A stretch of 64,000 nucleotides of DNA from Carcharhinus amblyrhynchos. Taxonomy: Eukaryota. Shown one piece after another: positions 3,658 through 61,426 of the stretch. Where the stretch lies: assembly GCA_965287045.1 (NCBI GenBank), contig OZ336885.1, positions 65,968,001-66,032,000 on the forward strand. The letters are read 5' to 3'. Made by a program: the position numbers and the translations under genes. The notes below the pieces were generated by a model that worked only from the letters and a program-made list of their open reading frames with translations, was not told the origin of the DNA and made no database searches. The first letter of the stretch is position 1; each line of letters opens with the position of its first letter.

Positions 3658-3693
3658 ATCTTGACAAACGGAATGACGATCTGAAAAACCCAG
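3658..3693 (+). CDS. 36-nt phase-1 exon, (H/D)LDKRNDDLKNP
   Basis: gttttgttttctag|...CCCAG|gtgaga; only the phase-1 frame lacks a stop. Confidence 0.75.
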
Positions 3694-4004
3694 GTGAGAG
3701 TTAGAACATTTCATCTGTCACAATGTAAACATGCATCATGGTACACCAGAAGAGCGATTTTCCCCAGATTTACAGCAACTTGGCAATATTACTGTTGAAT
3801 TTGATAATTCTCATCAGAACATTTGGATTTGTTTCCAATGATTACGTGACCCTACCAAATCGACTTTGAATACATATAATTTCCCTTAGAGACTCTTCAT
3901 TGAAGCGCAATGCTTTATATATATATATATATTATATATGACACTGAGAAGTAACAGATACTACCACTGACCACGTTTTTTCCAAAACAAATACCACAGA
4001 AATA

Positions 4005-5650
4005 TAGAAACTATGTGCAGGAATCGGGCATTCTGCCCTTCGATCCTGTAGCACCTCTCAACATGATCGTGGCTGATCATGCAATTTCGGTATCCCACTC
4101 CCCCTTTGTGTTCATACCCCTTGATTCTTTTAGCTGCCAGGGCCTCGTTCAGCTCCCTCTTGAACATATTGGACAAATTGGCACCACATCTTCCTCTGAT
4201 CGAAAACATTGCAGGTTCACTAGTCTGACAAGTTCTTCTTCCAAATTCTGAATGGATAAACCTCTATGTTTAGTCTGTGTCCCCTACATCTGCATTTCCC
4301 AAAAGAAGTAGAGTATCAGTTCCGCATCAAGCTTGTTGAGTCCAATCAGGATTGTATATATTTTTCTTTCTGCCTGAGATTTCCACACATTCTTCTGAAC
4401 TCCAGTGAATACAAACTTTGTCGATCCAGTTTCACCTCAGATGCCAGTCCTGCACTCCAGGAATCCGTCTGATGAACTTGGGGTGGAGTCCACCAGCGGC
4501 AGAAAATGTCCCTCCTCAAGCTAAGAACTCTGAACTGCACACAATAGTCATGGTGTTTCCTCATCAAGGCCGATATAACTACAGCAGGAAATCATTGCTC
4601 CTCCGCTTGCATCATCTTCTGACGGATACCAGCATGCTAGTAGATTTTCTCAGTGCCTGCAGTACCTGCAAAACAATCTTCAGTGAATGTTCCATCATAA
4701 ATCCCAGGTCACATTGCACTGGCCATTGTCTTAACCTGCGGCAATTCAGATAAAAATCTTCCTTTTTGACACCAAACTGAATACCTTCACATTCAGCCAC
4801 AATGTTGTCTATTATTGCTCCATTGTGTTGTATTTGAGACTATGTTTCCACTCAGGCATTCTGTCCATGTCATCCATTAGCCACTGATCATCTTCTTCAC
4901 AGCATACGTTGCCATCCGCTAATTGACATCTGTAAGTTTGGAGAGATTGCATTAATTTTCATTATCCAAATCATTAATGTGTACTGTGAATTGCTGGGAC
5001 CCCGACACTGAATCTTTCGTATCGCTATTTCACTGCTGCCACTTGGAAAACAACCCACTTATTCTTACGTTTTGTGTACTATTTGTCAACCAGTTCTCTA
5101 TCCATAATACAGTATGCCCAATTTCGTGAGTTTTTGGTTCGGTCATTAATCTTGGGCTTGTCAAAAGAATTTTGAAAGTGCTGGTGCATAACGTCCACTG
5201 GTTAACCCTTTTTCTAACCTACTTCTCATATCCTCACGCAAATGTAGAAGGTTAGTCAATCTTGATAGCCCATTGGCATGTCAATGCTGATTTCAGCCAA
5301 TCCTGTCACCGCTTTCCAAATGCTCATTTATTGCATCCTTAATAATTGAATTCTACATTTTTCCCCACAATTGATATTAGGCGAATTGGTCTATAATCGC
5401 ACCCCCCGCCTTTATTTTTCTCTCTCTTGTTTTGTTTTAATTATGGATTTACAACAGCTATCGTCCAATCAACTTGATTTCGTCCAGAATTTATAGAATA
5501 CTTTACGATTATTATCAATGCATTCAGTGTTTCTCGGGCCACTTCCTTTAAGTACATTTTGTTGCCACACATCAGGCCCTGATGAAGTGTTTGGTTTCAT
5601 TCGCAGCAAGTTCCCCAAACTAGTATCCTGACTAATAAGGATTTCATTTG
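4005..5650 (-). mobile_element. Degenerate CR1 LINE fragment (RT 3' part); duplicate at ~14265-15930
   Basis: Minus-strand ORF remnants WIENWL..., QFTVHINDLD...KLAD, YCVQF...LRRDI, LYSLEFRRMCGNL typical of CR1 RT C-terminus; boundaries approximate. Confidence 0.85.
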
Positions 5651-6799
5651 TTTTCAATTGTCCATTAAAATTTCACCTGATTAAGATCTTATGATAAGTC
5701 CTCAAGTCTCTCCCGAAGATTAACGGGGGATATAATTTGGATTTGTTTCTGATTGTGTTGAATTTAAAAATACTCAACATTTTCCTGAATATAGTGGAAA
5801 AAAATGAACACCCAAGTGACTGTATTGCCAAATCACTGACCATGTTCCTTCGAGAGTATGGAAAGTGCGACACCTTTGAAACTTAACATTCATAAACATC
5901 ATACAAGTATGTTTGCAAGTCAATTGGATGATTTTCCTAACACGCTGAAATTAAAATAGATTCCTCCCTGACTGGAGGCTGCAATTCATGTCGAAGTGTA
6001 CGATTAAATCTTGTTAAGCTCAACTAATGAAAGGCGACACTGAAATAGAGGCATGAGAGTTTTCACCTTATGATACTTGAATTGCTACGGAAATTGGATC
6101 GTCAAACAGGTCCTTCGTTTGTGCTTGTGAGATTTGTCTGTAAACAAGCAACTGCAGCAAAAAAGACGTTTGCCTTGGAACGAAGTTAAAAACATTAATC
6201 TATACGCCTCCCATTAATTAATTCTGCAGATGTATCATTACGCTAGTTTGTTTTGAACTAACTGTGGGCAGGTCGGACAAACGATACCTGATGGGATATT
6301 GACACTTGCTGTTGCTGTCCAGAATGACTTTCAAAGGCAACAATCCTGACTTTCACACGCACATCAATTATTTCGACATTTTTAAAAGATCACTTTAAGA
6401 ATACATTTCGTTGTCTCACTATTTCGCAATTTCAAGATATGATGTGTTTTTAAACATAAGATTAAAAAGTGACGCTGAGTAATACTAAGGGCGTGTTAGT
6501 GCTGTGCGCATAAAGTATTCAAACGCTCTTATGGAGGAAGACAAGGGGCAGAATTATACGGGCACGCCCGGCCGAGGTTCGTACGATCCAGCCCAAGACC
6601 AAAAGAGAATTCTGGAAAATTCGGGCCAAAGTCTCAAGTTATTCCAACACATGCATCGTGAGTTTTCAATAAAAATAAAAGATAGATCTGTCGTTTTGCC
6701 TGCACGGATCTTATTTCGAGTATTGGGACACTTCCTGTCCCTTCACGAACTATATCTGATCAAAAGATCGCCGCTCAACACCCCAATACTTCACACCTT

Positions 6800-6800
<1 letters not shown>

Positions 6801-6882
<82 letters not shown>
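6801..6882. repeat. (GT)n microsatellite
   Basis: About 41 GT units seen directly. Confidence 0.99.
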
Positions 6883-6886
<4 letters not shown>

Positions 6887-7648
6887 AAAAATATGATCAA
6901 GCTTACAATGAACTGGCGAGTATTAACTCGGTATGTACAACCACACACCTATTGAAAAAGTTAATGATCCTTAGGTTTGTTAAATTCTTGAGTAAAATCG
7001 AAGGGCAACAAAGTCCATATAAGCATCTGTGCATTTTTAATGTCCAGAAGAATGGCGCCATAATTTATTGCAAAAATCGTGATGAAAACATGTGCTTGCC
7101 ACTGTTCATATTGCCCTTTGGCTGAGGGAAGTGTCCGATCTCTTTCATTAAAATATATCATGCAATTACCTATACTACTCAAAAAAAAACTGGTGATATT
7201 ACTCTTCACAAGGTCCCTTTCATTTCCTTTCCCCTTTTTTCAGGCCATCTGCAGTGGCTTAGTTTTTCCAAACTCAATCAGTGTTGAGTATCCGCCTCCT
7301 TAAAGTGAAATGTTGGCATGAATTCTCACATGCCAGCTTTTTCAAAGCTAAGAAGAATCATCAACGCAGGTGCAGTTCTGTACACAGGTCATTGGGCTGA
7401 AGCGGACTCGTGATTGAAAAAAAAAATCCCTAAATCTCACTCTCTTAGTCCTGTTATAAGAAATACATCGCTTAATTATTGGACATCGTTTTGTCGTTTT
7501 ATTTGTTAATTCGCATCTATATTGCACCTGCCCAAGAGTAAAACTTTTTAGGCCATTTGGAAATTTCACAAGATGCAATGTGCTATTGCAAATTAATGTC
7601 TTAATTTGAATAAGCCAGATTCTGCTTTAATGTTGTTTGTGTTTTTAG

Positions 7649-7684
7649 AAATGCAACTATGGGACGACCTTGCCAGCAAATTCG
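7649..7684 (+). CDS. 36-nt phase-1 exon, EMQLWDDLASKF
   Basis: ttgtttgtgtttttag|...TTCG|gtaagg. Confidence 0.75.
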
Positions 7685-8229
7685 GTAAGGCTAAACATTA
7701 TTAGCGACAATCATGTCAACACTTGTTATCCGTTGATGTTTGATTAATAACAGTACACAAGAAACTGAAAGTTTCGTACAAACATCTCAGTATTCAATTA
7801 CACCATTTTCAGATTCGTTCGACTGATTTTTTTTTTCATTTTATTACATCTGCCTGAGAGGTAAACTGTTCATTCATTTAACATCTCAGAAAAAGAAAAT
7901 GAAAGTGAATACAATTGAAGCTGCACGGCCAGACAAGTATTCGTGATCGAAAGTCCTTTGTGAACTGGGGGCTGCGTTCACTGGACAGACAGTCATATGT
8001 TGGGTGCCTCAGTAGAGGGGTAAGCATGTGCGAAATAGGTATTTAAGGGGAAAAATCGTAGTATGACACAGGCAGCAAAATAATACGTTCATATTCTGTC
8101 CCAAGCAATGATACAGTGATTTTTCACAACGATTGCCAAGGCATTGACAGGAGTCATGTGAACATTATCGGCGTGGAAATTCAAGACACGTCATCATTAT
8201 ATACTTAGAAGAGTATCATCAGCCGTAAG

Positions 8230-8338
8230 CAAAGAACAAAGAACAAAATCAGCCCGCCAGCAGGCCCTTCGGCCCAACGAGCCCGCGCCGCCGTCTCAAC
8301 ACCACCAGTCCCCCTCTCCACCCACGACCCCTGTCCCA
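8230..8338 (-). mobile_element. Short CR1-type 3'-end insertion present only in unit A
   Basis: aaagaacaaagaac tail plus caggcccttcggccc; missing at the equivalent unit B site (~18565 agtaaacttatccaaacc). Confidence 0.7.
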
Positions 8339-9114
8339 TATCCAAACCGAAGCTTAAGATTCAAGATGCCTGATAACCACTGAAGGCGGTGGTTTAATGT
8401 TTTGTTTGTTCAAAAACAAAACTGATAAACAAAATGCTGCATTATATATACTGAAGGGATTGGAGTGACGCTTGCGGTATCTTATCTTCCAATATCGGGG
8501 AGAAACAAAAAAGAAAACTATATTTACTGGGCTTAATATGGCTGTGCGACATTCACTTCAGGGCAAGTCCCCTCGAATGTTGTTTTTAGCTTGAGGGCAT
8601 AGAATGAAGTGACGTGAATGCACTCACATATCCACAAGAATTGTACAGGAAGGGCATTTGCAACACATCAGCGTGCAGCCGAGAAGGTGTGACGGGGATG
8701 GGGGAGGTGAGGGAGGGGATGGGGGGGTCGGGGTGGAGGTTAAAGGAGCAGGCTCCAAATCTGAAACAGCAGAAGGATTAGAGGGCTCGTTTTCAAGATG
8801 GAAATGATGAGGTTGTCTTGCTTTGCTCAGCCGTGCCTGATGCTCGAAATTTCAGGCCCAAAAAATGGCGGAGGCAAGCGATAACTCATTTCACTTGGGA
8901 TTTAGGACAGTAGCATTTGATGCATTCACAGACGAAAGACGTATTAAAAACAAGCAACAATAGTAAAACAGGCCGAATTTTCTGCACATGAAGCCAAACC
9001 CAATGTTCGGAAACTAGTATTTTTCTGTCGGAGCAGACTTTCTTACAAGAGCTTGTGGAATGTCTGCTGTTACCACGCATATAGATATGATAATATATTA
9101 TTTATCTCTTGCAG

Positions 9115-9150
9115 GAGAAACGTTGAACCCATCAAGTAGAGGTACTTTCG
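9115..9150 (+). CDS. 36-nt phase-1 exon, GETLNPSSRGTF
   Basis: tttatctcttgcag|...TTCG|gtaagt; only phase-1 frame open. Confidence 0.75.
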
Positions 9151-9713
9151 GTAAGTCGTGATCTGAGAATTTGGCACACAAAAATATGCTTTTGTTTTAG
9201 AAAGCAATACACAGAAACTTCATACCATGAACAATACATGGTATTCTCCTCCAAAAGGAAGAAACATGCCAAGTTGAAAGTTCAAAAGGAATTTGGAAAG
9301 AATCTGAGTTAGTACAAATATCAACTAAGTTATGCTTTAGACATTGCGATGTGCAGCCAATATCACTTAGTAAAAAAAATCTGTATTTTATAAATGTTTC
9401 AACTCGTACTTTCGATCATCACTGAAATAAAATGTGTATCTAAAATTATTCATTGAGCAAAAATTAAAATGCACTTCTAATTATTATGAAACATTAACAA
9501 ATGCTAAATATTGACTTGACTTCCTAAGTATTACAAAACTCAAGATGGTTAAACTGAATAAGTATTTGCGTCAGGACTGCATATGTTTGATTACGCATCG
9601 TCTAATTGGAATCTAACTAGCTCATATCATTTTATGAATGCGAATTTCCTTCAGGCCATTAAATATTCATGGCTGTTTCAAAAAAGCTGCCTCATTCAAT
9701 CATACGTAGCTAG

Positions 9714-9753
9714 AACTAATAGGAGGACCGAACGGGAAACGACGTTTACAGAA
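9714..9753 (+). CDS. 40-nt exon (phase 1 to 2), ELIGGPNGKRRLQ
   Basis: ctag|AACTAATAGG...CAGAA|gtgagt; with the next 32-nt exon sums to 72 nt and restores frame; acceptor weak in this copy. Confidence 0.5.
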
Positions 9754-10284
9754 GTGAGTTCAGTCAATGAAATTGTAAAGCTCACATAAGCCAGCAACAT
9801 GCTTAATGGGTGGTGTTAAGTTTTTGTTTTATGGAGGGTGAAGCCTGTGTCTGCAGCAGAGGAGACAGTGCAGGACATTGCAAACATCAAACCCTTCTTT
9901 GTTTATTATGTATCAGACTTTTTTGTACTTGCGTTATTCATTAATTGCAATGATATATTTTACGAACTGTTTATCAGATGGGAAGATTAATGTTTAACTT
10001 AACATTAACACAACGATTGATAGCACTTATTATCGAAACATTGAATCATTGCTTTCCCGAATGAGCGTAAATAGTCTTTTTTTTCAAACGCAAGTGTTTT
10101 TGCTGAATTTGAAATGAGCTTTTCAAGCCATTCCACCTCCCATTTTTTGCGACAGCGATTCCCTATTCTTAAAATAAAGCACTTTCTCGTTAATCAGTTT
10201 GAGCTGTAACATAGCCTACAGACCGTTGTTTGTCCCATGCCTATCTTTTTTTCTCTTCCCTGATTTGTTCTTCGCCCTCTCTAG

Positions 10285-10316
10285 GTTTGTTGTGTCGCAA
10301 ATGGTCTCCGACGGTC
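10285..10316 (+). CDS. 32-nt exon (phase 2 to 1), KFVVSQMVSDG; donor mutated GT to AT
   Basis: ttcttcgccctctctag|...GGTC|ataaga versus |gtaagc at positions 6 and 20560. Confidence 0.45.
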
Positions 10317-13300
10317 ATAAGAAAATAGAAATATTTCGCTCAATAAAATACTACAAAATACCTTAAAAGTTCTATCGAAAGAACTACAGATCAGAAGCTA
10401 GGAATATTTCAACGACTGAGCCTACCTCTGATTCCCCGATGTTAACGAACATCGGCAAGTTTCAAGTCAATACGTGATGGAATAATCCGCAATGTTTAAA
10501 TGAAGACACCTCTCACCACTCTTAACGAGGTCGACACCATCCATGGCAAATTATCTCATATTATTGAAAGCCGGCCTTTTGTGATGAAGATTACCTCAGC
10601 CAATACCAACACAGTGGCCGTAGTTTGTATCATGTAATAGGTACACTGCGGAACTTTAACAATGTTCGTCGATGACATCTTCCGCCAACGTGCACTGAAC
10701 TGCCAAGAAGACTAAAGCAAGAGATGAATGCAGATAACGTCATCTGCAATTTATCCTCCACGATAAAAGCCACCCTGACCTTGAACAATATCAAACACAA
10801 ATTGTCTGCCCTTCTTCGTAATTCTGGATATCGCTTCATAACAACAATGGACGTGTAACGAATAACGAACAATGTGCGTGTGCATTGAAGCATTTCAAGA
10901 AGTCAGCTCACTAACACCTGTTCAATGGATCTTAGGGATGTCCAATACATATTTGCAATTCACAGTTCATGAACACGTCAAAGAACTCATGTTCTTCCAG
11001 AAAATCCTGTACTTTTTTCAGCCATCATTTGAAATCAATAACGTCAGACTTTAATTTAATATGGAGATATATCGTAACACAAATTTGCTTGCAAGATCCC
11101 ACATAAATATGAACAACTCTATCAAGTGTTGTTTTATCTACAACTTCCATTTAAAAAAAGAATCCAGATTCATTGGCGTGAAATTTCAGCAGATGTCCCT
11201 CAATGTTGGCTTCTGTTTTGTATACGCACCCGCTCCTCTCCAATGCATTTTTTTTTCGAAAAAAAAGTTTCGTTGAATAAATATAGGACATCTGTCCCAC
11301 AATTCGATCTATTTCAGTAGGTACACGTCCAAGTCTCTGCCTCCCCCATTGTGCAATTTACATTTTATTCTGATGTTCATCCTTCACAGAGCTCTAAGGC
11401 AGATATTTCCGCTGATTTTCCCGATTCCGTTATCTTACAGTTATGCCAGTATCAGAGCCTGCAGTAGTCTTCAACATACCTATGATATTTGCATGTAGTT
11501 TACTCATGCATATCTGTGTAGATTACATAACAATTCACTTCCGCAGTGAGCTGTAACATCGGAAAATTGTGATAACAATAAAGTAAATTCTCCCAGTTGT
11601 TCTTTCGGAATTTTTTTCAGCTTTGCATAGATAAGTCAAATTTTTAGTTCTTTCGATGACGGTATGTTACAGAAAGGCTGCAAGGAACAGTCTCTGATTA
11701 TCAATAAAACCACGGGACAGGATAATATGATACTAATATAATTATATGCCTTTTGAACAATTTTAACAAAAACTCTGTAAATATTGTAAACGAAAGAAAA
11801 TATGTCACTATTGAAGCAATCTGCCATCCCCGTCTGCTGCAGCACCTTTGTTGTTCCAGGACGGCAGGTATCTGAGTCAGTTTCAATTGCTCACGTGGAC
11901 TTCCACCTGAAAAAACATATCAATTGTGAGCGACCCTTACATTCCACGAACAGAAATGAAAATGTTTTGAACATCTATGTTGTTTTCTTAAGTAGCTTGG
12001 TGTTCTAGCCCAAAGTGCCCTGTCCGCATACATTTGCTCTCCCACAGCCAATGCAGCAGTTGTAATATTCTCATCGTTTCAAAATTCAAACATTATTTCC
12101 ATGTCTTGTAAGTATTGTAAATATTGCATCTCTGTACAGCCGCCATCCGCTCGTGAGATCACCTTTTTCTTCCATACCACAATGTATATCATCCTAACCA
12201 GCAGCATATAACAGTCATGTCATACGAGAAGTCAGCCTGGTGAATGTGTCTGCACTCCCCCTCAACAAGATATTACTTTAGCTAAGAAACCAAATGGCGC
12301 AAAATACTGCAGAGTGAGCCACACCAACGACCTAAACATTTGCCGTAAAATATGTTTATTCCTATTCTCAAACCTTCACGCTGTGAAGGCCAGGATGTTA
12401 TTGGCCGTCTTTTTTTTTGCCCGCTTTACTGGCGACCTCGGCTCCAAGACTGATATACGTCTCGGTGACTATTAAACTCTCTAATTGATATCCATTGAAA
12501 CGATAATCTGCACTTATTTTTGCAATTGGGTTGCTTATCCTCAAACTTCATCACATTATGCTGCATCTGGCATAGAGCTGTCCACTCTGGCAGCCAAATG
12601 TTATAATAGATTACAATTATACGGTAACAGATTAAGTTACCTCTGCAAAATCCTTAAAATGAGCAGTTGTGTTACGATTCCAGGTCCTTGCGGCAATCCA
12701 CCATTCTATTACCGTCAAATGAAAGAAATGTTTATTCTTAATCTTTGCTTGTCGTCTACTAAACAGGTTTATTTTCATCACGTCGCATCACCAGCAATCC
12801 CATACGCTTTACCTTCACATGTTAATCCGCTAATTGATGGCTGTTGGAAGCCGTTTAACAAGTATAACCGATCACAGCCACCTGCATTCTTAAAGAATTT
12901 CAGTGGGTCTGTCAAACGTATTTTGCCTTCTGGAAATACATGCTGCCTTTGTGTGATTAGAACGGAAATGTCCAGCTATGGAATGCTGTGCTGCGAAATG
13001 ATTGATAATGTATTCAACAGCATCCAGAACAGTGTCGTTAGGATCATTGTTCCACCATGTCCCGACCTCTCTTCTTGAACCGCAGGTTAACATTTACTAC
13101 ACTCCGATAGATAAGACCCATTCCAGAGTCCACACAATTTTCACAACCGATCACCAATTATTTATTATTCTCAGGCCACTTTCGTAAGTATTCAGAGTAA
13201 GGTTCGTAGGCGCTGGGGATAAATATGAGTACAAAACCATTGTTTTCATGAAAAGCATGGCTCGACTAATTCTGAGTTCCTTCAACTCCTCAGTAAAACC

Positions 13301-13926
13301 TATGTTTCTCAGAACATTCCATGCCATTTTCATGCACCCCTTTAATAATTCAGAAGAGAGGTACGAATTTCAATCCTCATCCTTTTATTTGACTTTATCG
13401 TGAATTTATAGGTTTAAGAATTGAACAGGCAGATACACGTTGTTTTTTCCCAATCTAGTACCTCTTTACAAAGCTACATAGGCATTTTCAGTCAGTTTTT
13501 ATGTTCCCCGCCATGTTACATTTGTGCTCTATTTTGCGCCCCTGGAATCAATACAGTGTTTGACCTTTGCTGAACTGTAAGCTGCTCCGAAACACGTCGT
13601 CAATTGCTCTTATTCAGCTACTTTAATTGCTACTCACTTGAATGTAATACTCTCTTTAATTTCCTTCATACACCGTTTTGAGCTTTGAGACTTGCAAAAT
13701 GAAATAATTTCCAAATTGAAACATGACTGAAATAAGCAAAAGACGATACGTCATTCCCATAGCTTGGCCGCTCTCTCTCTCTCTCTACGCGCTTGCTTTC
13801 TACGATATGCTCACTATGCTGAATTTGTCGAAGCCTGTTCATCAAAGTTCTACCCAAAATCCTCGGCTTTCGCTTTTGGTTTTTTCATACATTACATAAA
13901 TCAAAATCAATCGTTTTGTTTTCTAG

Positions 13927-13962
13927 ATCTAGGCAAACGCAATGACGATCTGAAAAACCCAA
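13927..13962 (+). CDS. 36-nt phase-1 exon, xLGKRNDDLKNP (unit B)
   Basis: ttttgttttctag|...CCCAA|gtgaga; only phase-1 frame open. Confidence 0.7.
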
Positions 13963-16900
13963 GTGAGAGTTAGAACATTTCATCTGCCACAATGTAAACA
14001 TGCATCATGATACAGCGAAAATGCGATTTTCCCAGGATTTGCAGCAGCTTGGCAATATTTACTGTTGAAGTTGACAACTTTCATCAGAAAACTTGGAGTT
14101 GTTTCCAATGATTACGTGACCCTACCAAATAGACTTTGAATACATGTAATTTCCCTTAGAGACTCTTCAATGAGGCGCAAAGTTTTTTTTTAATATTTAT
14201 TACACAAAAAGTAATACACACTACCACTGAACACGTCATTCCAAAAAAAACATAATAACACAGAAATATGGAAACTATGTGCAGGAATCGGCCCTTCTAT
14301 CTTGTCATACCTCTCAACATGATCATGGCTGATCATGCACTTTCACTATTCCACTCCCCCTTTATGTTTATATCCCCTGATCTGTTTAGCCGCAAGGACC
14401 TCGTTCAGCTTCCTCTTGAACATATGGGACAAATTGGTACCAACAGCTTCCTGTGATCGAATACTCCGCAGCTTCATTACTCTGACAAGTTTTTCTTCCA
14501 AATTCTGAATGGATAAACCTCTATGTTTAGTCTGTGTCCGCTACATCCGCACTTCCCCCCAGAAAATAAGAGAGTATCATTCCCGCGTCAAGCTTGTTGA
14601 GTCCAATCAGGATTGTGTATATTTTTCTATCTTCCTGAGATTTCCACACATTCTTCTGAACTCTAGTGTATACAAACTTTGTCGATCCAGTTTCACCTCA
14701 GATTCCAGTCCTGCACTCCAGGAATCCGTGTGATGAACCTGGGGTGGAGTCCACCAGCCGCAGAAAATGTCCCTCCTCAAGCTAAGAACTCTGAGCTGCA
14801 CACAATAGTCATGATAATTCTTCAGGAAGGCCTCGAACCTGCAGCAAGAAATCATTGTCCCTCCACTTACATCATTTTCTGACGGATACCAGCATGCTAG
14901 TAGATTTTCTCAGTGACTGCAGTACCTGCAAAACAATCTTCGGTGAACGTTCCATCATGAATCCCAGGTCACATTGCACTGGCCATTGTCTTAAACTGCG
15001 GCAATTCAGATAAAAATCTTCCTTTTTGACACCAAACTGAATACCTTCACATTCAGCCACTATGTTGTCCATTATTGCTCCATTGCGTTGTATTTGCGAC
15101 TATGTATCCACTCAGGCAGTCTGTCCATGTCATCCATCAGCCAGTGGTCATCTTCTTCACAGCATACATTGTCATCAGCTTATTGACATCTGCAAGTTTG
15201 GAGAGATTGCATTTGTTTTCATTGTCCAAATCGTTAATGTGTACTGTGAATTGCTGGGATCCCGACACTGAATCTTTCGCATCCCTATTTCGCTGCTGCC
15301 ACTTGGAAAACAACCCATTTATTCCCAATTTCTGCGTACTCTTTGCCAACCAGTTCTCTATCCATAACACAGCATCCCCAATTTTGTGAGTTTTGGGTTT
15401 GGTTATTAATCTTGGGCTTGTCAAAAGAATTTTGAAAGTGCTGGCGCATAACGTCCACTGGTTACCCCTTTTTCTAACCTACTTCTCATATCCTCACGCA
15501 AATGTAGAAGGCTAGACAATCTTAATAGCCCATTAGCATGCCAATGGTGGTTCCAGCCAATCCTGCCACCACTTTCCAAATACTCATTTATTCCACCCTA
15601 AATAACTGACTTCTACATTTTTCCCCACAATTGATATTAGGCAAATCGGCCTATAACCGCCCCCCCACCCCCCCTCTTTATTTTTCTCTCTCCCTCGTTT
15701 TTTTTGTTTTAATTATGGATTTACATTAGCTATCTTCCAATCAACTGGAGTTTATCCAGAATTTATAGAATACTTTACGATTATTATCAATGCATTCAGT
15801 GTTTCTCGGGCCACTTCCTTTGAGTACCTTTTGTTGCCACACATAAGGCCCTGGTGAAGTGTTTGGTTTCAATCGCAGCAAGTTCCCCAAACTAGTATCC
15901 TGACGAATAAGGATTTCATTTGTTTTCAGTTGTCCATTAAAATTTCACCCGATTAAGATCTTATGATAAGTCCTCAAGTCTCTCCCGAATATTAACTGGG
16001 AATATACTTTGGAATTTTTTCTGATTGCGTTGAATGTAAAAATGCTCAACATTTTACTGAATAAATGGAAAAAATGAACGTCATATTGAGGGAAGCAAAT
16101 TAAACGTACCGCATCCATATTTGACAATCAATGCTCCAAGTGACTGCATTGCGAAATCACTGACCATGTTCCTTCGAGAGCATGGAAAGTGCGACACTTC
16201 TGCAACTTAACATTCATGAACACCATACAAGTATGTTTGCAAGTCAATTGCATGATTTTCTAAAGACGCTGAAATTAAAATAGATTGCTCCCTGACTGGA
16301 GGCTGCAATACATGTTGAAATGTATGATTAAATCTTGTTAAGCTCAACTAATGAAAGGCGACACTGAAATAGAGACATGAGAGTTTTCACCTTCTGATAC
16401 GTGAATTGCTTCGGAAATTGGATATCCAAGCAGGTCCGACGTTTGCGCTTGTGAGATTTGTCTGCAAAGAAGTAACTGTAGCGAAAAAGACGCTTGTCTT
16501 GGAACGAAGTTAAAAACAAATACATTAATCTATATGCCTCCCATTAATGGAATCTGCTGATATATCATTAAGCTGGTTTTCTTTGAACTAACTGTGGGCA
16601 TGTCGGACAAACGATGCCTGATGTGATATTGACACTTGCTATTGCTCTCCAGAATGACTTTCAAAGGCAACAATCCTGACTTTAACACGAACATCAATTA
16701 TTTCGACATTTTTAAAAGATCACTTTAAGAATACATTTCGTTGTCTCACTATTTCGCAATTTCAAGATATGATGTATTTTTAAACAGTTGATATCAAGAT
16801 AAAAAGTGACCGTGAGTAATACTAAGGGCGTGTTAGTGCTGCGCGCATGAAGTATTCAAACGCTCTCATCTAGGAAGACAATGGGCAGAATTATACGGGC

Positions 16901-17119
16901 ACGTCCGGCTGAGGTTAGTACGATCCAGCCCAAGACCAAAAGAGAATTCTGGAAAATTCGGGACAAATTGTCAAGTTATTCCAACGCGTGCATCGTGAGT
17001 TTTCAACAAAAAAAATAGATCTGTCGTTTTGCCTGCACGGATCTTATTTCGAGTATTGAGACACTACCTGTCCTTTCACGGACTATGTCTGAACAAAAGA
17101 TCGCTACTCATCACCCGAA

Positions 17120-17255
17120 NNNNNNNNNNNNNNNNNNNNNNNNNNNNNNNNNNNNNNNNNNNNNNNNNNNNNNNNNNNNNNNNNNNNNNNNNNNNNNNNN
17201 NNNNNNNNNNNNNNNNNNNNNNNNNNNNNNNNNNNNNNNNNNNNNNNNNNNNNNN
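17120..17255. other. Assembly gap (136 N) where unit A has the (GT)n microsatellite
   Basis: Run of N; flanks match ~6770 and ~6900 of unit A. Confidence 0.98.
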
Positions 17256-17992
17256 TAAAACTTACAATGAATTGGCGAGAATTAACTCGGAAGGTACAAC
17301 CACATAACTATTGAAAAACTTAATTAACCTTAGGTTTATTAACTTTCCGAGTAAAATCGAAGGGCAACAATGTCCATATAAGCATCTGTACATTTTTAAT
17401 GTCCAGAAGACATAAATTATTGTAAAAATCGTGATGAAAACATGTGCTTGCCACTGTTCATGTTGTCCTTTGGCTGAGGGAAGTGTCCGATCTCTTTCAT
17501 TTAAATATATCATGCAATTTCCTAACTACTGAAAAAAATAAACTGCTGATATTACTCTTCACAAGGTCCCATTCATCTACTTTCCCCCTTTTTTCAGGCC
17601 ATCTGCACTGGCTTAGTTTTTCCAAACTCAATCAATATTGAGTACCCGCCTCCTTAAACTGAAATGTTCGCATGAATTCTTATATGCCACATTTTTCAAA
17701 GCTAAGAAGAAACTCCAATTCTATACATAGGTCATTTGGATGAAGCTGACTCCTGATTGCAAAAATAAGTCCCTAAATCTCACTCTCTCAGTTCTGTTAT
17801 AAGAAATGCATCGCTTAATTAGTGGACATTGTTTTGTAGTTTTATTTGTTAATTGACATCTATATTGCACTTTGCCCAAGAGTAAAACTTTTTATGTCAT
17901 TTCAAAATTTCAGAAGATGCAATGTGCTATTGCAAATTGAAGTCTTAATTTGAATACGCCAGATTCGGCTTTAATGTTGTTTGTGTTTTTAG

Positions 17993-18028
17993 ATATGCAA
18001 GTATTGGACGACCTTGTCAGCAAATTCG
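17993..18028 (+). CDS. 36-nt phase-1 exon, (N/D)MQVLDDLVSKF (unit B)
   Basis: ttgtgtttttag|...TTCG|gtgagg. Confidence 0.72.
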
Positions 18029-19357
18029 GTGAGGCTAAACATTATTAGCGACAACCATGTCAACACTTGTTATCCGTTGATGTTTGATTAATAACAGTAC
18101 ACAAGAAACTGAAAATTTCTTACAAATATCTCAGTACTCAATTACATCAGTTTCAGATTCGTTCGACTGATCTTTTTTTTATTTCATTACTCCTACCTGA
18201 GGGATAAACTGTTCATTCTTGAAACAGCTCAGAAAAAAAAAGTGAATGCAATAGAAGCTACACGGCCAGCCAAGTATTCGTGATCGAAAGTCCTTTGTGA
18301 TCTGGGTACTGCCTTCAGTGGACAGACAGTCATATGTTGGGTGCCTCGGTAGAGGGGTATGCATATTCAAAATAGGTATTTAAGGGAAAAAATCGTAGCA
18401 TGACACGGGCAGCAAAATAATACGTTCATATTCTGTCCCAAACAATAATACAGTGATTTTTCACAACGATTGCCAAGGCATTGACAAGAGTCATGTGAAC
18501 ATTATCAACGTCGAAATTCAAGACACGTCATCATTATATACTTAGAAGAGTATCATAAGCAGTAAACTTATCCAAACCGAAGCTTAAGATTCAAGATGCC
18601 TGATAACCACTGAAGGCAGTGGTTTTATTTTTTGTTTGTGCAAAAGCAAAACTGCACAAACAAAATGCCGCATTTTATATGCTGAAGGGATTGGGGTGAC
18701 ACATGCCGTATCATATCTTCCAATAGGGGGGAGAAACAAAAAGAAAACTATATTTATTGGGCATAATATGGCTGTGCTACGTTTACTTCTGGGCAAGACC
18801 CATCGAATGTTTTTTTTAGCATGAGAGCATAGAGCGAAGTGACGCGAATGCACTCATATATCTACAGGAATTGTCAAGGAAGGGCATTTGCAACAAATCA
18901 GCGGGCAGCCGAGAAGGTGTGACGGGGATAGGGGGTGGGGGAGGGGGTGAAGGAGGCGGGGGGGGCGGTGGGAGCTTGGTGGAGATTGAAGGATCAGGCT
19001 ACAAATCTGAAACAGCTGAAGGATTAGAGGGCACGTTTTCAAGATGGAAATGATGAGATTGTCCTGCCTTTGCTCAGCCGTTCCTTCCACTCGAAATTTT
19101 AGGCCCAAAATTGGCGGAGGCAAGCGATACTGATTTCATTTGGGATTCAGAACAGTAGCATTTGATGCATTCACAGACGAAAGACGTATTAAAAACAAAC
19201 AACAATCGTAAAACAGGCCGAATTTTCTGCACGTGAAGCCACACCCAATGTTCGGAACGTCGTTTTTCTGTTGGAGCAGGGTTTCATACAAACGTTTATG
19301 GAATGTCTGCTGTTGCCGCGCATATAGATGTGATAATATATTATTTATCTCTTGCAG

Positions 19358-19393
19358 GAGAAACGATGCACCCATCAAGTAGAGGTACTTTCG
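19358..19393 (+). CDS. Unit B copy of 36-nt exon GETMHPSSRGTF; donor lost (GT to GA), in-frame cryptic GT at 19385
   Basis: ctcttgcag|...TTCG|gaaaaa; AGAG|gtactt would give a 27-nt exon. Confidence 0.5.
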
Positions 19394-19957
19394 GAAAAAT
19401 CATTACCTGAGAAAATTGGCACACAACAATATGTTTTTTTTTAGAATGCAATGAACAGAAACTTGATACCATGAAGAATGCATGGTACTCTCCTCCAAAA
19501 GGAAGAAGCATGTCAAGTTGAAAGATCAAAAGGAATTTGGAAAGAATCTGAGTTAGTACAAAGATCAATTAAGTATTGCTTTAGACATTGCGATGTGCAG
19601 CCAATATCAATTAGTAAAAGAAATCTGTATTTTATAAATGTTTCAACTCGTAGTTTCGATCATCGCTGAAATAAAATGTGTATCTAAAATTATTCATTGA
19701 GTAAAAATTAAAATACACTTTTAATTGTTACAAAACATTAACAAATGCTAAATATTGACTTGACTTCCTAAATATTACAAAACTCAAGATGGTTCAACTG
19801 AAAAAGTGTTTGCGTCACGACTGGATATGTTTGATCATGCGTAGTTCAGTTGGAACCTAACTAGTTCATATCACTTTATGAATACGAATTTCCTTCCGGC
19901 CATTAAATATTCATGGCTGTTTCAAAAAAGCTGCCTCATTCAATCATATGTATCTAG

Positions 19958-19997
19958 AACTAATAGGAGGACCGAAAGGGAAACGACATTTACAGAA
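19958..19997 (+). CDS. 40-nt exon (phase 1 to 2), ELIGGPKGKRHLQ
   Basis: tcatatgtatctag|...CAGAA|gtgagt. Confidence 0.55.
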
Positions 19998-20527
19998 GTG
20001 AGTTCAGTCAATGAAATTGTAAAGTTCACATAAGCCAGCAACATGCTTAATGGGTGGTGTTAAGTTTTTGTTTTATGGAGGGTGAAACCTGTGTCTGCAG
20101 CACAGGAGACAGTGCAGGACAATGCAAACATCAAACCCTTCTTTGTTTATTATGTATCAGACTTGTTTGTACTTGCGTTATTCGTTAATTGCAATGATAT
20201 ATTTTACGAACTGTTTATCAGATGGGAAGATTAATGTTTAACTTAACATTAACATAACGATTGACAGCACTTATTATAGAAACATTGAATCATTGTTTAA
20301 CCGAATGAGCGTAAATAGACTTTTTTTTTCAAAACGAACTGTTTTTGCTGAATTTAAAATGAGCTTTTCAAGCCATTCCACCTCCCATTTTTTTGTGCCA
20401 GATGTTCCCTATTCTTAAAATAAAAGGCTTTCAAGTTAATCAGTTTGGCTGTTTCAAAGTCTACAGACGGTTGTTTGTTCCATGCCTATCTTTCTCTCTT
20501 CCCTGATTTGGTCTTCGCCCTCTCTAG

Positions 20528-20559
20528 GTTTGTCGTGTCGCAAATCGTCTCAGACGATC
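20528..20559 (+). CDS. 32-nt exon (phase 2 to 1), KFVVSQIVSDD
   Basis: gtcttcgccctctctag|...GATC|gtaagc. Confidence 0.6.
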
Positions 20560-21503
20560 GTAAGCAAATAGAAATAATTTGCTCAATGAAATACAAGGTG
20601 GACAACCTTAGAAGTTCTATCGAAAGAACTACATATCAGAAGCTAGGAATATTACAACGACTGAGCCTACCTCTGATTCCCCGATGTTAACGAACATCGG
20701 CAAGTTTCAAGTCAATAGAGTGATGGAATAATCCGCAATGTTTAGATGAAGACACGTCTCACCACTCTTAACGAGATCGACACCAACCAAGGCAAATTAT
20801 CTCATATTATTGAAAGCCGGCCTTTTGTGATGAAGATTACCCCAGCCAATACCAACACAGTGGCCGTAGTTTGTATCATGTAATAGATACACGGCGGAAC
20901 TTTAACAATGTTCGTCGATGGCATCTTCCACCAACGTGCACTGAACTGCCAAGAAGACTAAAGCAAGAGATGTATGCAGATAACTTCATCTGCATTTTAT
21001 CCTCCACTATAGAAGCCACCCTGACTTTGAACAATATCAAACACAAATTGTCTGGCCTTCTTTGTAATTCTGGATGTCGCTTCATAACAACAATGGACGT
21101 GTAACGAATAACGAACAATGTGCGTTTGCACTGAAGCATTTCAAGAAGTCAGATCACTCACACCTGTTCAATGGAACTTAGGGGTGCCCAATGCATATTT
21201 GCAATTCATAGTTCATGAACACGTCAAAGAACTCATGTTCTTCCAGAAAATCCTGTACTTTTTTCAGCCATCATTTGAAATCGATAACGTCAGACTTTAA
21301 TTTGATAAGGACACATAACGTAACACAAATATGCTTGCAAGATCCCGCATACATATGAGCCACTCTATCAAGTGGTATTTTATCTCCAACTTCCATTAAA
21401 AAACACAATCCAGGCTCATCGGCGTGAAATTTCAGCAGATGTCCCTCAGTGTTGGCTTCTACTTTCGTATACGCAACTGCTCCTCTCCAATGCATTTTTT
21501 TTC
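20555..21503. repeat. Partial third unit C
   Basis: Matches unit A 1-~945, then similarity stops after ccaatgcattttttt. Confidence 0.93.
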
Positions 21504-21880: not shown

Positions 21881-21916
21881 GTGCATATTTAGCGGATGGG
21901 CAATTCGTTTAGTTCG
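21881..21916 (+). other. 36-nt exon-like unit with in-frame stop (xAYLADGQFV*)
   Basis: tttctttttttttactgttcag|...TTCG|gtgagt; TAG in phase-1 frame. Confidence 0.45.
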
Positions 21917-24900: not shown

Positions 24901-24934
24901 GTTGTTTTAGCTCGCGGAAGCCAAATGACATTTT

Positions 24935-26424: not shown

Positions 26425-26451
26425 GGGCCAAAGAAGCAATGGAGAAACTTT
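26425..26451 (+). CDS. 27-nt phase-1 exon, xAKEAMEKL
   Basis: tccttttcgaatag|...CTTT|gtaagt. Confidence 0.65.
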
Positions 26452-32017: not shown

Positions 32018-32044
32018 CCCAATATATAGAAAGAAGTAAAGATG
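32018..32044 (+). CDS. 27-nt phase-1 exon, SQYIERSKD
   Basis: tcttcgtaattttacag|...GATG|gtaaat; only phase-1 frame open. Confidence 0.65.
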
Positions 32045-33153: not shown

Positions 33154-33189
33154 ACTTAGAGAAAATGAAGAACAAGAGATTAGCTACGG
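33154..33189 (+). CDS. 36-nt phase-1 exon, DLEKMKNKRLAT
   Basis: tctctttctatag|...ACGG|gtaaga. Confidence 0.75.
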
Positions 33190-34045: not shown

Positions 34046-34072
34046 AAAAGAGCCCACATTTCCCACCAACAG
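34046..34072 (+). CDS. 27-nt phase-1 exon, EKSPHFPPT
   Basis: aatttattttccag|...ACAG|gtgaga. Confidence 0.75.
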
Positions 34073-35872: not shown

Positions 35873-35899
35873 GTTCTTCAAAGATTACAGACAGTTTCG
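35873..35899 (+). CDS. 27-nt phase-1 exon, GSSKITDSF
   Basis: gtccctcctgttag|...TTCG|gtcagt. Confidence 0.6.
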
Positions 35900-44564: not shown

Positions 44565-44628
<64 letters not shown>

Positions 44629-45158: not shown

Positions 45159-45194
45159 AAAGGAACAAACTGCTGATGCGCCTCATCGATGCAG
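45159..45194 (+). CDS. 36-nt phase-1 exon, ERNKLLMRLIDA
   Basis: tgtatgcgctttcag|...GCAG|gtgcgt. Confidence 0.7.
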
Positions 45195-46231: not shown

Positions 46232-46258
46232 AAGATAAATTGAAGGCCTGTCAAAATG
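46232..46258 (+). CDS. 27-nt phase-1 exon, EDKLKACQN
   Basis: tttctacaattacag|...AATG|gtaagc; only phase-1 frame open. Confidence 0.78.
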
Positions 46259-46350: not shown

Positions 46351-46377
46351 AGCTGAAAGCCTGCAAAACAAGTGGCC
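46351..46377 (+). CDS. 27-nt phase-1 exon, ELKACKTSG
   Basis: tgtttgtaatctcag|...GGCC|gtgagt; 92-nt intron; repeats LKAC of the previous exon. Confidence 0.78.
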
Positions 46378-51868: not shown

Positions 51869-51895
51869 AAACTGACCTGATTAAATGCCAATTGG
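51869..51895 (+). CDS. 27-nt phase-1 exon, (Q/E)TDLIKCQL
   Basis: cttgtttccctag|...TTGG|gtaact; only phase-1 frame open; shares L-x-x-C-Q with exon 46232. Confidence 0.68.
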
Positions 51896-55454: not shown

Positions 55455-55729
55455 CTGAAATATCTCTTTGCTACATCTTATGTCATATCAACATCAGGTT
55501 ACAAAAACATCAACCTCAAATCTGATAGGCTGCTGTTAGTACAGTTTAAACCAGGATATATTGTTTAAGCCTGTTGTCTTGGCAATACTTCAACCTGGCC
55601 TCCTGATGTCAATGTTTCACTCCAAGCTCTCTGGGTTCATGTACTTTACAGAAAACAGACAACTCTAAATACAACAGGCATCATCCTTTTAAAAGATAAT
55701 TTTACAAACACCAACGTCACAACACATCA

Positions 55730-59012: not shown

Positions 59013-59048
59013 AAACTGAAAAAATGAAGCAAGAACTGATACAGAGCG
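59013..59048 (+). CDS. 36-nt phase-1 exon, ETEKMKQELIQS
   Basis: ctgcttctgtatgacag|...AGCG|gtaaaa; shares EKMK with exon 33154. Confidence 0.7.
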
Positions 59049-60014
59049 GTAAAAAAAATGAAGATAATCATGATTAATACTTCTCATTGTTCATTTTCAC
59101 TCTGCTTCATATTGTCATCCAGCAATGTTTGCAGCTGCACAATTGTCCGAAAAGAGTCACGATGCCTGTTTGCTGAAAGTGAAGATGATTGTTGAACACA
59201 TTAGCAGTATTTAGGCTTAGAAATAACATGCAAAACAAAACATAAGAGTACTGGAAATCTTCCACGTCTCACAGCATCTGTGGACAGAGAATAGAGCCTT
59301 AGTTTTGAGGCTTGATTGCCTTTTGTCAAAGTTGAGACTTTCCAGCATTTTCTGTTTTTGTTTGAGATTTCCAGTATTTCAGTGTTTTGCTTTATCTCAG
59401 ATCAAACATGTTGGAAGTTACAAATTCTAACGTGTATCAAGGCACAATTCTGATCAGCACATGACAAGGAGGTGTACCTCTTCTGGAGAGATTGCATTGC
59501 AGCTTTATACGGACTGTCCCGGAGTTGGAAGTTACAGATATCAAAAGAGTTTGGGATTATCGATGATTTTTTGGAATGGAATTTAGGGAGGTGATACATA
59601 CTCGTTTGCGAATAGTAGGAGAACCGTCGATGGCATAAATAGAAAAAAAAGTGTTTTCCCATAGCTCAAGAGTCAATTGCAGGAAGCTATTGGTTTTCTG
59701 TGGTTAGTAGGTGGATTAGAATATAGACGAAAGAACAATTAATGTCAGCCAGATATCTGTGGATTTCCGCGATTCACAGCTTGAACAGCTGTTTGGGAAT
59801 GAAGCGCTGAACCCAGTTAAGATCTAAGTCGTGCTGTTCTGTAGTATTTAAGTATTTGATTGAGCTGAAAGTAAATAACTGACTTTTTTGTGTTATTTTC
59901 CCGGAAGTTGCAATGGGCTGAACTGTCCAATTATGTATCACGACGTTTAGGCCACACTGTATGATTGGATGTTGCAGTTCCTCCACTTGTGAAGAAAAAC
60001 AATGATGCCAATGA

Positions 60015-60160
60015 AATTGGATAGGTTTATGGACAAAAAGGGATTGGTTTAGATTAGTGGGTCAATGTTTTTTTTTAAAATAAGACTGGTCGGCGCAACA
60101 TTGTGGGCCGAAGGGCCTGTTCCGCGCTGTAATGTTCTATGTTCTATGTTCTATGTTCTA
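60015..60160 (+). mobile_element. CR1 3' terminus with (TTCTATG)n tail; further CR1 fragment ~59420-59700
   Basis: gtgggccgaagggcctgttccgcgctgtaatgttctatgttctatgttctatg. Confidence 0.85.
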
Positions 60161-61399
60161 AATTTATTCGATGGCAGACCAGCCATACATCTGGTACTTC
60201 AATTCTCGACTATGCAATCCCGTTAAAATTGTGAAATTGAATGCATTAACAGATTTGGTGTGCTAAAAAATAGTCAAAATATTGAAAGATTATTTTAATA
60301 ACAGAGTCCTTACTTTCCTTAAATTCACTGTCGACTCTTTTTTTGTGACCAACATCCCGCTCTCGTCCCCTCCATCCCTCCCTATCCCCGCCGCACCCTC
60401 CCCCCCACCCCCCCGCCAACCACGCACCCCACCCCCCACCCCCCACCCCCGCCCCTCATTCAATGCACATCCTTCCCTGGAGAACTCTCTTGCACTGTTT
60501 TCTTTAAATCCATCATGTTGGTCTAATGATTTAAGTACCAGACATGAACTCATTCCAAATACAGAACAGTTCCCGGGGTATTTATCGTCTCCTGCTAATT
60601 GCACTAAAAAAAACCGAACACCAAGCGTGCTTAGGCGCTGCAAAGAAAGATGCCGCGCAGGTTATTGAGCAGTTGACTTCTGGTCGAGGCATGAGCGCCA
60701 CGCTTATTTTTCATATGTTCGTTGGCGTAAACAAGCAATGTTCAAAGGTCGTTGTCTGGTCAGGGAACATGCAAACGTCTTTACGAAAAGCATAGATTTG
60801 GGGAGAACCATGAGTTCGCAAATTCTCGTTGTGTCAACCGGCGGGGAACATGCAGCTTGGTGTGTTTTGAAGTAGTTGTCACCGGAATCTTGTGATCAGT
60901 AATTTGAGAAAAAAAATAAGAATAGTTATTGTCTTGCCATTCTCGGTCTTTATAATTGTTCCCTGTAGGTTCAAAAACGTTTCCTCTTACCATTTCCTTC
61001 GTATGTATCTGCGCAACTATAGAAGAACTATCCAACTACACCAGTGACTAAAGTTGCATTGCCGCATATTTTGCAATGCAGTTCAACTGTCTGTAGAATG
61101 TTTGCAATTCTGGGAAATTACCCCGCCACATATACCCCGCCATACTTCTCAAGTCCGAACTTCCAAAGCATTTTCACTTGTGTCCCAGCAAATCCAAAAT
61201 TGGCAACATTGAAGTTACGGCAAAATAGATTCCACTCGTTCTCCGTAAATGTATCTTTAATGCAATGTTAGATGCGATTGCTTGTCAATTTTGCGTGAAG
61301 CAAGTTATACAAAACAAGTTTGTACTTAATAATGGCGTTAACAATAATAATAATAATAATAACAGATTTAATACTTCCAAAATATTTCGACATATTCAG

Positions 61400-61426
61400 G
61401 CGTGAACTGGAGCGAAATTTTCCAAG
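61400..61426 (+). CDS. 27-nt phase-1 exon, GVNWSEIFQ
   Basis: tttcgacatattcag|...CAAG|gtaaag. Confidence 0.65.

What the first reader, a model, noticed from the sequence alone, without database searches (positions are those of the whole stretch)
3658..61426. Hidden plus-strand gene built from ~20 micro-exons of 27/36 nt across ~58 kb
Seen: AG...GT-bounded units of exactly 36 nt (3658, 7649, 9115, 13927, 17993, 19358, 33154, 45159, 59013) or 27 nt (26425, 32018, 34046, 35873, 46232, 46351, 51869, 61400), plus 40+32-nt pairs. All are on one strand and open in phase 1; for six of them (3658, 9115, 13927, 32018, 46232, 51869) phase 1 is the only open frame. Junction codons create no stops. The unique part reads RAKEAMEKL-SQYIERSKD-DLEKMKNKRLAT-EKSPHFPPT-GSSKITDSF-ERNKLLMRLIDA-EDKLKACQN-ELKACKTSG-QTDLIKCQL-ETEKMKQELIQS-GVNWSEIFQ. 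Inference: a real, modular protein segment that ORF finders and many annotation pipelines would miss; symmetric exons permit combinatorial skipping.
Basis: partly seen in the sequence, partly recalled or inferred. Interest (0 to 1): 0.85.

Follow-up and report, generated by a model that had tools for sequence, protein, structure and literature searches.

The report
Giant shark micro-exon coiled-coil B30.2 gene
Most of the tiny segments are likely real exons from the middle of a predicted gene nearly one megabase long, in what is likely a shark, that would string about 170 exons of 21, 27 or 36 bases into a long coiled-coil rod ending in a B30.2 (immune-type binding) domain; splicing of this gene is untested.

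Summary
Mostly confirmed. 16 of 17 named units are AG..GT-bounded and all are open in phase 1. 19358 lacks its donor, 35873 and 61400 score no better than background, and the 40+32 pairs are weak. With a model trained outside the window: 9 strong units on plus, 0 on minus, 0.2 in shuffles.

The window is 7% of an array running from about -432 to +468 kb: 167 catalogued exons (12x21, 86x27, 69x36 nt; no adjacent junction stop), ending in a B30.2/SPRY exon. No Ig, transmembrane or RING exon was found; a candidate ATG exon lies at -475.6 kb. Five paralogous B30.2 exons on the same contig have the same kind of exon upstream. A catshark RefSeq relative maps exon by exon onto phase-1 micro-exons, and its isoforms differ by one 27-nt cassette.

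Against: no RNA for this gene; the 10.3-kb duplicated block is partly decayed; an unlisted strong exon (21881) carries a stop shared by three relatives.

Best reading: a giant, likely cytosolic, Ig-less version of the butyrophilin/BG heptad-exon tail. The scan reported this gene type before in other shark genomes; I found no paper on it.

The parts
1..21502 (.). Tandem segmental duplication, ~10.3-kb unit, 87-92% identity; further copies reach back to about -21 kb; holds the repeated 36-nt exons
3658..3693 (+). 36-nt phase-1 micro-exon, type A (copies at -14631, -6725, 13927)
7649..7684 (+). 36-nt phase-1 micro-exon, type B (copy at -3300 has lost its AG)
9115..9150 (+). 36-nt phase-1 micro-exon, type C; strong splice sites, not coil-like
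9201..9240 (+). 40-nt unit with weak donor, 50 nt after the previous exon; its 32-nt partner 10285-10316 has no GT; doubtful
13927..13962 (+). 36-nt phase-1 micro-exon, type A copy
17993..18028 (+). 36-nt phase-1 micro-exon, type B copy
19358..19393 (+). Type C copy with GA in place of the GT donor: likely dead exon
19445..19484 (+). 40-nt unit, weak donor; with 20528-20559 (32 nt) the only 40+32 pair bounded by AG..GT on both; doubtful
21881..21916 (+). Unlisted 36-nt unit with very strong splice sites and an in-frame stop at 21910-21912 (TAG here, TAA in three relatives; AG and GT kept): stop/poison exon or old dead exon
26425..26451 (+). 27-nt phase-1 micro-exon; weak acceptor; the only catalogued exon ending in T
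32018..32044 (+). 27-nt phase-1 micro-exon
33154..33189 (+). 36-nt phase-1 micro-exon, coil-like
34046..34072 (+). 27-nt phase-1 micro-exon, very strong sites, three prolines (predicted hinge)
35873..35899 (+). 27-nt unit, not above background; uncertain
45159..45194 (+). 36-nt phase-1 micro-exon, coil-like
46232..46258 (+). 27-nt phase-1 micro-exon; first of a close pair (92-nt intron) that recurs at -104885/-104763 and -53845/-53728
46351..46377 (+). 27-nt phase-1 micro-exon; second of the close pair
51869..51895 (+). 27-nt phase-1 micro-exon
59013..59048 (+). 36-nt phase-1 micro-exon, coil-like; open only in phase 1
61400..61426 (+). 27-nt unit, not above background; uncertain

Best explanation
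The window holds about 14 likely live exons from the middle of one predicted ~945-kb gene that would splice ~170 phase-1 exons of 21, 27 and 36 nt into a likely cytosolic protein of ~1,900 residues: a short head, a long predicted coiled-coil rod and a terminal B30.2/SPRY domain. SHOWN: the array of units on plus; its order (21-nt block, then 27/36-nt exons, then 36-21-27 nt, then the B30.2 exon with its stop); its coil-type composition; paralogues with the same kind of exon. INFERRED: each exon is a frame-preserving helix module. 145 of 167 end in G and 134 begin with A, so the junction codon is usually Glu or Asp and almost never a stop. The gene can therefore lengthen by duplicating exon-bearing blocks (the 10.3-kb repeat here) and lose or skip exons without harm. 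The rod would dimerise, up to ~250 nm long at 0.15 nm per residue, and hold two B30.2 ligand-binding heads at a distance: a length-adjustable tether or scaffold, working like the chicken BG 'zipper protein' tail with a butyrophilin-type B30.2 on its end. Inclusion of exon 21881 would give a shorter rod without B30.2 or send the mRNA to decay. The ligand and tissue are untested; a cytoskeleton or membrane partner is my guess, an immune ligand the alternative.
For: Window statistics. Untrained filter: 27/36-nt units exceed other lengths on plus in the 50-kb bins from -300 to +450 kb, and not on minus. Trained model in -290..+468 kb: 151 plus vs 0 minus 27/36 units at score >=4; 112 of the 167 catalogued were not training seeds. 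No adjacent junction stop; K/L/E/D make up 53% of residues; hydrophobic residues at fixed a/d-like exon positions; period 3.5 in the 21-nt block and in the 3' block. Terminal phase-1 exon is Pfam SPRY E=1.7e-12; the family profile's best PDB match is BTN3A1 B30.2, E=6e-32. Five paralogous B30.2 exons on C16 at 38-58% identity have phase-1 27-nt exons upstream, with 21- or 36-nt exons in most; the 63.74-Mb one has 8x27 and 10x36 sense vs 2 and 2 antisense in 90 kb. Catshark XP_038672306/308/309 (coil + B30.2, no RING, Ig, signal or TM seen) maps collinearly and in register onto phase-1 exons of the C9 sister gene. Its isoforms X1 and X2 differ by 9 residues lying exactly between two mapped exons. 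Candidate ATG exon at -475.6 kb, good Kozak context, phase-1 donor.
Against: No RNA evidence for this gene; the laid runs are genomic. Linking 167 exons, the ATG exon and the B30.2 exon into one transcript is inference from strand, phase and order. Array-wide trained counts are partly circular (55 seeds picked on plus for open frame and coil composition). The duplicated block shows decay (dead sites at -3300, 19358, 10285, -18550) and its exons are not clearly more conserved than flanks. Exon 21881 has a stop shared with relatives, and its 36 nt vary as much as the flanks (3 of 36 vs about 18 of 245 sites). The window's unique part shows no clear heptad period. The ATG exon is one candidate with no sequence homologue to confirm it.
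Confidence: 0.7

Rival explanations
1. The array is two transcription units or two main isoforms. An upstream, B30.2-less rod (BG-zipper-like) ends at the stop exon 21881. A downstream gene starts after it (26425 contains an ATG in a good context) and runs to the B30.2 exon.
For: 21881 has among the strongest splice sites in the window, and its stop is kept in three relatives (TAG vs TAA); AATAAA-type signals follow from 22240. The duplicated block before it is decayed. The head-to-head minus-strand array also has a 27/36 block in front of a 21-nt block, which could mean extra units.
Against: 21881 keeps a strong GT donor in all four genomes, as expected for an internal cassette. The close 27+27 pair module occurs on both sides of it. 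No longer first exon was found at 21.9-46 kb. TAG to TAA is the commonest transition, so it is weak evidence of selection.
Confidence: 0.14
2. It is a membrane or secreted butyrophilin/BG-like protein whose signal, Ig and transmembrane exons were missed. The rod would be a cytoplasmic tail, or an extracellular stalk if the start of the -475.6 kb exon is the end of a signal peptide.
For: 21-nt heptad exons come first, as they do after the TM exon in BG and BTN genes (PMC4046983, PMC6790196 passages). The -475.6 kb exon opens with a few hydrophobic codons before the ATG, and the rod holds 2.5% Cys. A teleost protein of 1628 aa has an apparent signal peptide, a long coil and B30.2.
Against: No Ig Pfam hit in 150 of 186 plus-strand Cys/Trp ORFs upstream. 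No butyrophilin IgC hit on C16 among 87 candidates genome-wide. No TM-like exon in -700..-280 kb and no convincing signal exon. An opposite-strand paralogue bounds the space at about -527 kb. The catshark relative starts directly with a polar coil.
Confidence: 0.11
3. The window's units are remnants of a decayed gene or chance AG..GT pairs, with no protein made.
For: Dead splice sites and prolines in the duplicated block; two named units at background level; one stop exon.
Against: 9 vs 0 vs 0.2 in the window. 84 of 85 strong array units open in phase 1 vs 33 and 41 in the other frames (up to 55 seeds were chosen as open). Intact B30.2 exon. In-register mapping of an annotated relative onto the sister gene.
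Confidence: 0.05

Closest known systems
Butyrophilins (BTN3A1 and kin)
   Same: Very short 'heptad' exons ahead of a B30.2 exon (PMC6790196, passages). BTN3A1 is the best PDB match of the family profile. An ordinary IgC-bearing gene of this genome (C46) also has candidate 33/27/27-nt phase-1 exons before its B30.2.
   Different: About 167 micro-exons instead of a few; no Ig or TM exon found; the W350-H351-Y352 pocket motif aligns with D-S-W; the B30.2 sits on a long separate branch from the 12 ordinary B30.2 domains sampled in this genome.
Chicken BG genes and 'zipper protein'
   Same: Long coiled-coil tail encoded by 13-36 exons of 21 (sometimes 24) nt; tail length varies; a soluble tail form regulates actin-myosin (PMC4046983, passages).
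   Different: BG has an IgV and a TM region and no B30.2. Here most exons are 27 and 36 nt (together three heptads), there are about five times as many, the span is ~0.9 Mb, and a B30.2 ends the chain.
Catshark XP_038672306.1/308.1/309.1 ('TRIM39-like', 442-460 aa)
   Same: Coil plus B30.2 of the same clade (66% to the C9 sister); maps onto phase-1 micro-exons; 9-residue cassette isoform.
   Different: About a quarter of the predicted length; counterpart of the C9 gene, only 36% to this B30.2; the automatic name is misleading (no RING or B-box); no study found.
Enterophilins (recalled: cytosolic, long leucine zipper plus B30.2)
   Same: Same domain layout, from recall. The papers read give only that enterophilin-1 binds SNX1 and lowers surface EGFR (PMC13749957, PMC9205943 passages).
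   Different: Mammalian, with a much shorter rod as recalled; exon structure and kinship untested; primary papers not held.
Class-IV TRIM proteins (TRIM21/39/58)
   Same: C-terminal PRY-SPRY after a coiled coil.
   Different: No RING/B-box exon found upstream; the coil is encoded by micro-exons.

Membership tests
B30.2/PRY-SPRY proteins | C-terminal B30.2 domain | tested here: met
   Pfam SPRY 47.9 bits vs cut-off 26.3; PDB hits; Atlas SPRY clusters at 0.96. Joining it to the window exons is inferred.
Butyrophilin | Extracellular IgV-IgC domains | tested here: not met
   No hit in 150 of 186 upstream ORFs; no PF22705 hit on C16. The V-set search scored only 150 of 1794 candidates and is uninformative.
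Butyrophilin | Signal peptide and transmembrane exon | tested here: not met
   Hydrophobicity scans of candidate exons; a weak or unusual exon could be missed.
Butyrophilin | Short phase-1 heptad exons before B30.2 | tested here: met
BTN3A phosphoantigen sensor | W350/H351/Y352 pocket residues (PMC7348870 passage) | tested here: not met
   The W-H-Y motif aligns with d-s-w in the family profile; numbering matched by the motif.
Chicken BG | Many 21-nt heptad exons forming a long coil | tested here: met
   11 exons of 21 nt at the 5' end with period 3.5; the rest are 27/36 nt.
Chicken BG | IgV plus TM and no B30.2 | tested here: not met
   B30.2 present; IgV and TM not found.
TRIM | RING and B-box at the N-terminus | tested here: not met
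   No RING/B-box Pfam hit upstream (one sub-threshold zf-C5HC2 hit); none in the catshark relative.
Enterophilin | Cytosolic long zipper plus B30.2, orthology | not testable with these tools
   Layout matches by recall only; no sequence or primary paper obtained.
Any expressed gene | Spliced transcript | not testable with these tools
   No RNA run listed; laid runs cover introns evenly, so they are DNA.

The most novel reading that the evidence does not exclude
Sharks carry an undescribed multi-megabase cluster (C16 60.4-66.4 Mb here) of giant, Ig-less B30.2 genes, one ~0.95 Mb and its head-to-head neighbour 1.5-1.7 Mb. Each is written almost wholly in 100-200 symmetric micro-exons, and together they produce a combinatorial set of coiled-coil rods of adjustable length, by exon skipping, block duplication and a regulated stop exon. 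This would be a vertebrate micro-exon-gene family and a cytosolic offshoot or forerunner of the butyrophilin/BG tail.
Probability: 0.4. Interest if true: 0.82.

Novelty: new variant of a known kind. Interest (0 to 1): 0.64.

Why it matters
Genes of this build are nearly invisible to annotation: about 500 coding bases in this 64-kb window, and no close protein found in two database searches with the B30.2 exon. If transcribed whole, they would be among the most exon-rich and micro-exon-dominated vertebrate genes (comparison from my own knowledge). They would offer a natural test of how more than 100 consecutive micro-exons are spliced across kilobase introns. They also bear on an open question about butyrophilin and BG tails: chicken BG diversity is reported to be selected in the heptad tail, and whether orphan B30.2 domains serve such tails is unclear (PMC8813856, passage). 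A shark family made only of tail plus B30.2 makes the function of that module testable by itself.

Tried and rejected
RNA: the look-up of sequencing runs with the B30.2 exon and flank gave no RNA holder listed. The six listed runs are from three coded organisms; the four laid behave as low-depth DNA.

Protein database: the single B30.2 sequence gave nothing at E<=1e-10 (longer) or 1e-8 (near); only the 7-sequence profile found a relative (8000 candidates scored).

Own genome: PRY and V-set family searches scored only the best 150 and showed nothing on C16. The idea of an ordinary Ig-bearing butyrophilin was dropped. Regex scans for lectin, fibrinogen and C1q ends gave nothing. A CpG scan gave no promoter candidate near the 5' end.

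The C. milii 1697-aa protein named in an earlier scan note did not appear and was not tested. No structure or complex was predicted. Place look-up in earlier findings was empty.
Full report
Setting. The window is G000:C16:65,968,001-66,032,000 in a 2.9-Gb genome. Positions below are window-relative; add 65,968,000 for C16. That it is a shark is my inference, from the genome size, the large Ig and TRIM clusters and 66% identity of one B30.2 domain to a catshark protein.

Observation. Sixteen of the 17 named units are AG..GT-bounded as stated; 19358 has GA after 36 nt. All are open in phase 1, seven only in phase 1. I trained splice and composition matrices on 55 units lying outside the window. 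With splice score alone, 10 of 22 strong plus-strand units of 15-60 nt in the window are 27 or 36 nt, against 0 of 16 on minus. Requiring an open phase 1 gives 9 plus, 0 minus and a mean of 0.2 in 30 shuffles. Five of the nine are copies within a 10.3-kb tandem duplication at 87-92% identity. Unit by unit, 14 of the 16 stand above the minus-strand background; 35873 and 61400 do not. The 40+32 pairs are weak. The duplicated block has dead copies at -3300, 19358, 10285 and -18550.

A missed unit. 21881 (36 nt) has very strong sites and an in-frame TAG. In DNA runs of three related organisms it keeps AG and GT and reads TAA; the exon varies about as much as its flanks. It is an old stop, either a regulated stop/poison exon or a long-dead exon.

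Extent. An untrained filter over 1.06 Mb shows the plus-strand excess of 27/36-nt units from about -290 to +462 kb and none on minus. The trained model finds 151 plus against 0 minus 27/36 units at score >=4. This is partly circular, but 112 of the 167 catalogued exons were not seeds. The catalogue has 12 exons of 21 nt (11 of them at -432 to -310 kb), 86 of 27 nt and 69 of 36 nt, with a median intron of 3.6 kb; five weak units (26425, 32018, 35873, 61400, 467465) and 463971 were added by hand. No adjacent junction makes a stop; 69 of 13,861 ordered pairs do, all through 26425. The 1,685 codons are 53% K, L, E and D, with hydrophobic residues at fixed exon positions. The period is 3.5 in the 21-nt block and the last 170 kb, 3.65 in -290..-30 kb, and unclear in the window's unique part and in +64..+300 kb. 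A pair of 27-nt exons about 90 nt apart recurs three times, once in the window, which suggests growth by block duplication.

Ends. After exons of 36, 21 and 27 nt (461697, 463971, 467465), a phase-1 acceptor at 468397 opens a 170-codon frame ending in a stop, followed by poly(A) signals. It is Pfam SPRY and matches TRIM58, BTN3A and TRIM21 B30.2 structures. At the 5' side I found no Ig domain (150 of 186 candidate ORFs scanned; no butyrophilin IgC on C16), no TM exon and no convincing signal exon. The best candidate is a 120-nt exon at -475,562 with an ATG in good context and a phase-1 donor. A similar 111-nt ATG exon faces the other way at -526,902 and heads a minus-strand array. These start assignments are inference.

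Family. Five more B30.2 exons at 38-58% identity lie on C16 at 60.4-63.7 Mb, and one on C9 (150 of 328 candidates scored). The C16 ones have phase-1 27-nt exons upstream, most also 21- or 36-nt ones. Twenty 10-kb samples between 63.88 and 65.22 Mb hold 18 minus-strand units against 1 plus, 21-nt ones at the high end and 27/36 below. So the neighbour mirrors this gene over 1.5 Mb or more, though continuity rests on 14% sampling. In a 19-row tree the six C16 domains plus the C9 one fall on one side of a 100/100 branch against 12 ordinary B30.2 domains of this genome; the tree is unrooted and holds no other species.

Annotated relative. A profile search found catshark XP_038672308.1, named TRIM39-like but with only PRY/SPRY. 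Its coil maps collinearly on phase-1 exons of 24-48 nt in the C9 gene: 18 sense hits against 2 antisense, about 13 of them in order, with four consecutive exons in exact register at residues 229-270. Isoforms X1 and X2 differ by nine residues lying between a mapped 27-nt and a mapped 36-nt exon. That RefSeq isoforms rest on RNA is my assumption. This is the nearest thing to splicing evidence, and it concerns the sister gene.

Mechanism. Shown: exon-like units, their order and phase, the terminal domain, paralogues. Inferred: one ~945-kb transcript giving a cytosolic protein of about 1,900 residues, a dimeric rod with B30.2 heads, whose length changes by skipping and block duplication, with 21881 as a possible off-switch (0.70). 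Rivals: two units split at 21881 (0.14); a membrane or secreted form with missed 5' exons (0.11); decay or chance (0.05). The binding partner is unknown; a tether to cytoskeleton or membranes is my guess by analogy with BG zipper protein.

Known kinds. It works like a butyrophilin/BG heptad-exon tail with a B30.2, but it fails membership of butyrophilin (no Ig or TM found), BG (it has B30.2) and TRIM (no RING). The BTN3A1 pocket motif W-H-Y aligns with D-S-W (PMC7348870). Papers seen, all as keyword passages only: PMC4046983, PMC6790196, PMC12841164, PMC8813856, PMC7348870, PMC13749957, PMC9205943; no supplements were read. The enterophilin layout is recalled. Seven searches (listings only) showed no paper on this shark family; subscription journals are largely absent from the library.

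Earlier scan notes. Four follow-up reports describe the same gene type in other shark genomes. My reading was set before I saw them. One of them led me to retry the protein search with a profile. They are unchecked AI notes and are not counted as support.

Verdict. A real feature, larger than reported, and a new variant of a known kind; interest 0.64, held back by the lack of RNA for this gene and of any functional evidence.

Noticed in passing
G000:C16:63.74-65.44 Mb, minus strand (L123-L131, L178-L197, L102-L119): Head-to-head sister micro-exon array of 1.5-1.7 Mb ending in a B30.2 exon at 63.74 Mb. A 27/36-nt block at 65.27-65.42 Mb precedes its 21-nt block and may be a separate B30.2-less unit.
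   Followed up: partly
L074:~5291-6214 region (window-relative +491,291..+492,214), minus strand: Single-exon ORF of 308 aa that looks like a class-A G-protein-coupled receptor by eye, just downstream of the B30.2 exon.
   Followed up: no
L008:4624-7016 (C16:66.097-66.099 Mb): LTR-retroelement gag- and protease-like ORFs with an env-like fragment inside an intron of the array; another env-family hit at L120:5612-5923.
   Followed up: no
window 3028-3075 and 13313-13360 (copies at -15255, -7344): 48-nt AG..GT unit, open in phase 1 and with both sites kept in all four duplication copies, but not coil-like; possible extra exon.
   Followed up: partly
window 12048-12107 (copy at -16544): 60-nt phase-1-open unit with strong sites in two duplication copies; the copy near 1737 appears to lack the GT.
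   Followed up: no
window 36971-38462: Inverted repeat of about 500 bp at 83% identity with a 490-bp spacer.
   Followed up: no
window 24932-25619, 39800-43434, 54671-55033: Degraded LINE reverse-transcriptase fragments in introns.
   Followed up: no
P0005 (XP_026230924.1, Anabas testudineus): 1628-aa teleost protein named CCDC18 with an apparent signal peptide, about 1,400 residues of repeated coil and a C-terminal PRY-SPRY: a similar layout, possibly convergent; exon structure unseen.
   Followed up: no
L142-L146 (C46:1.056-1.106 Mb): Ordinary butyrophilin-like gene with an IgC exon, candidate 33/27/27-nt phase-1 exons and a standard B30.2.
   Followed up: partly
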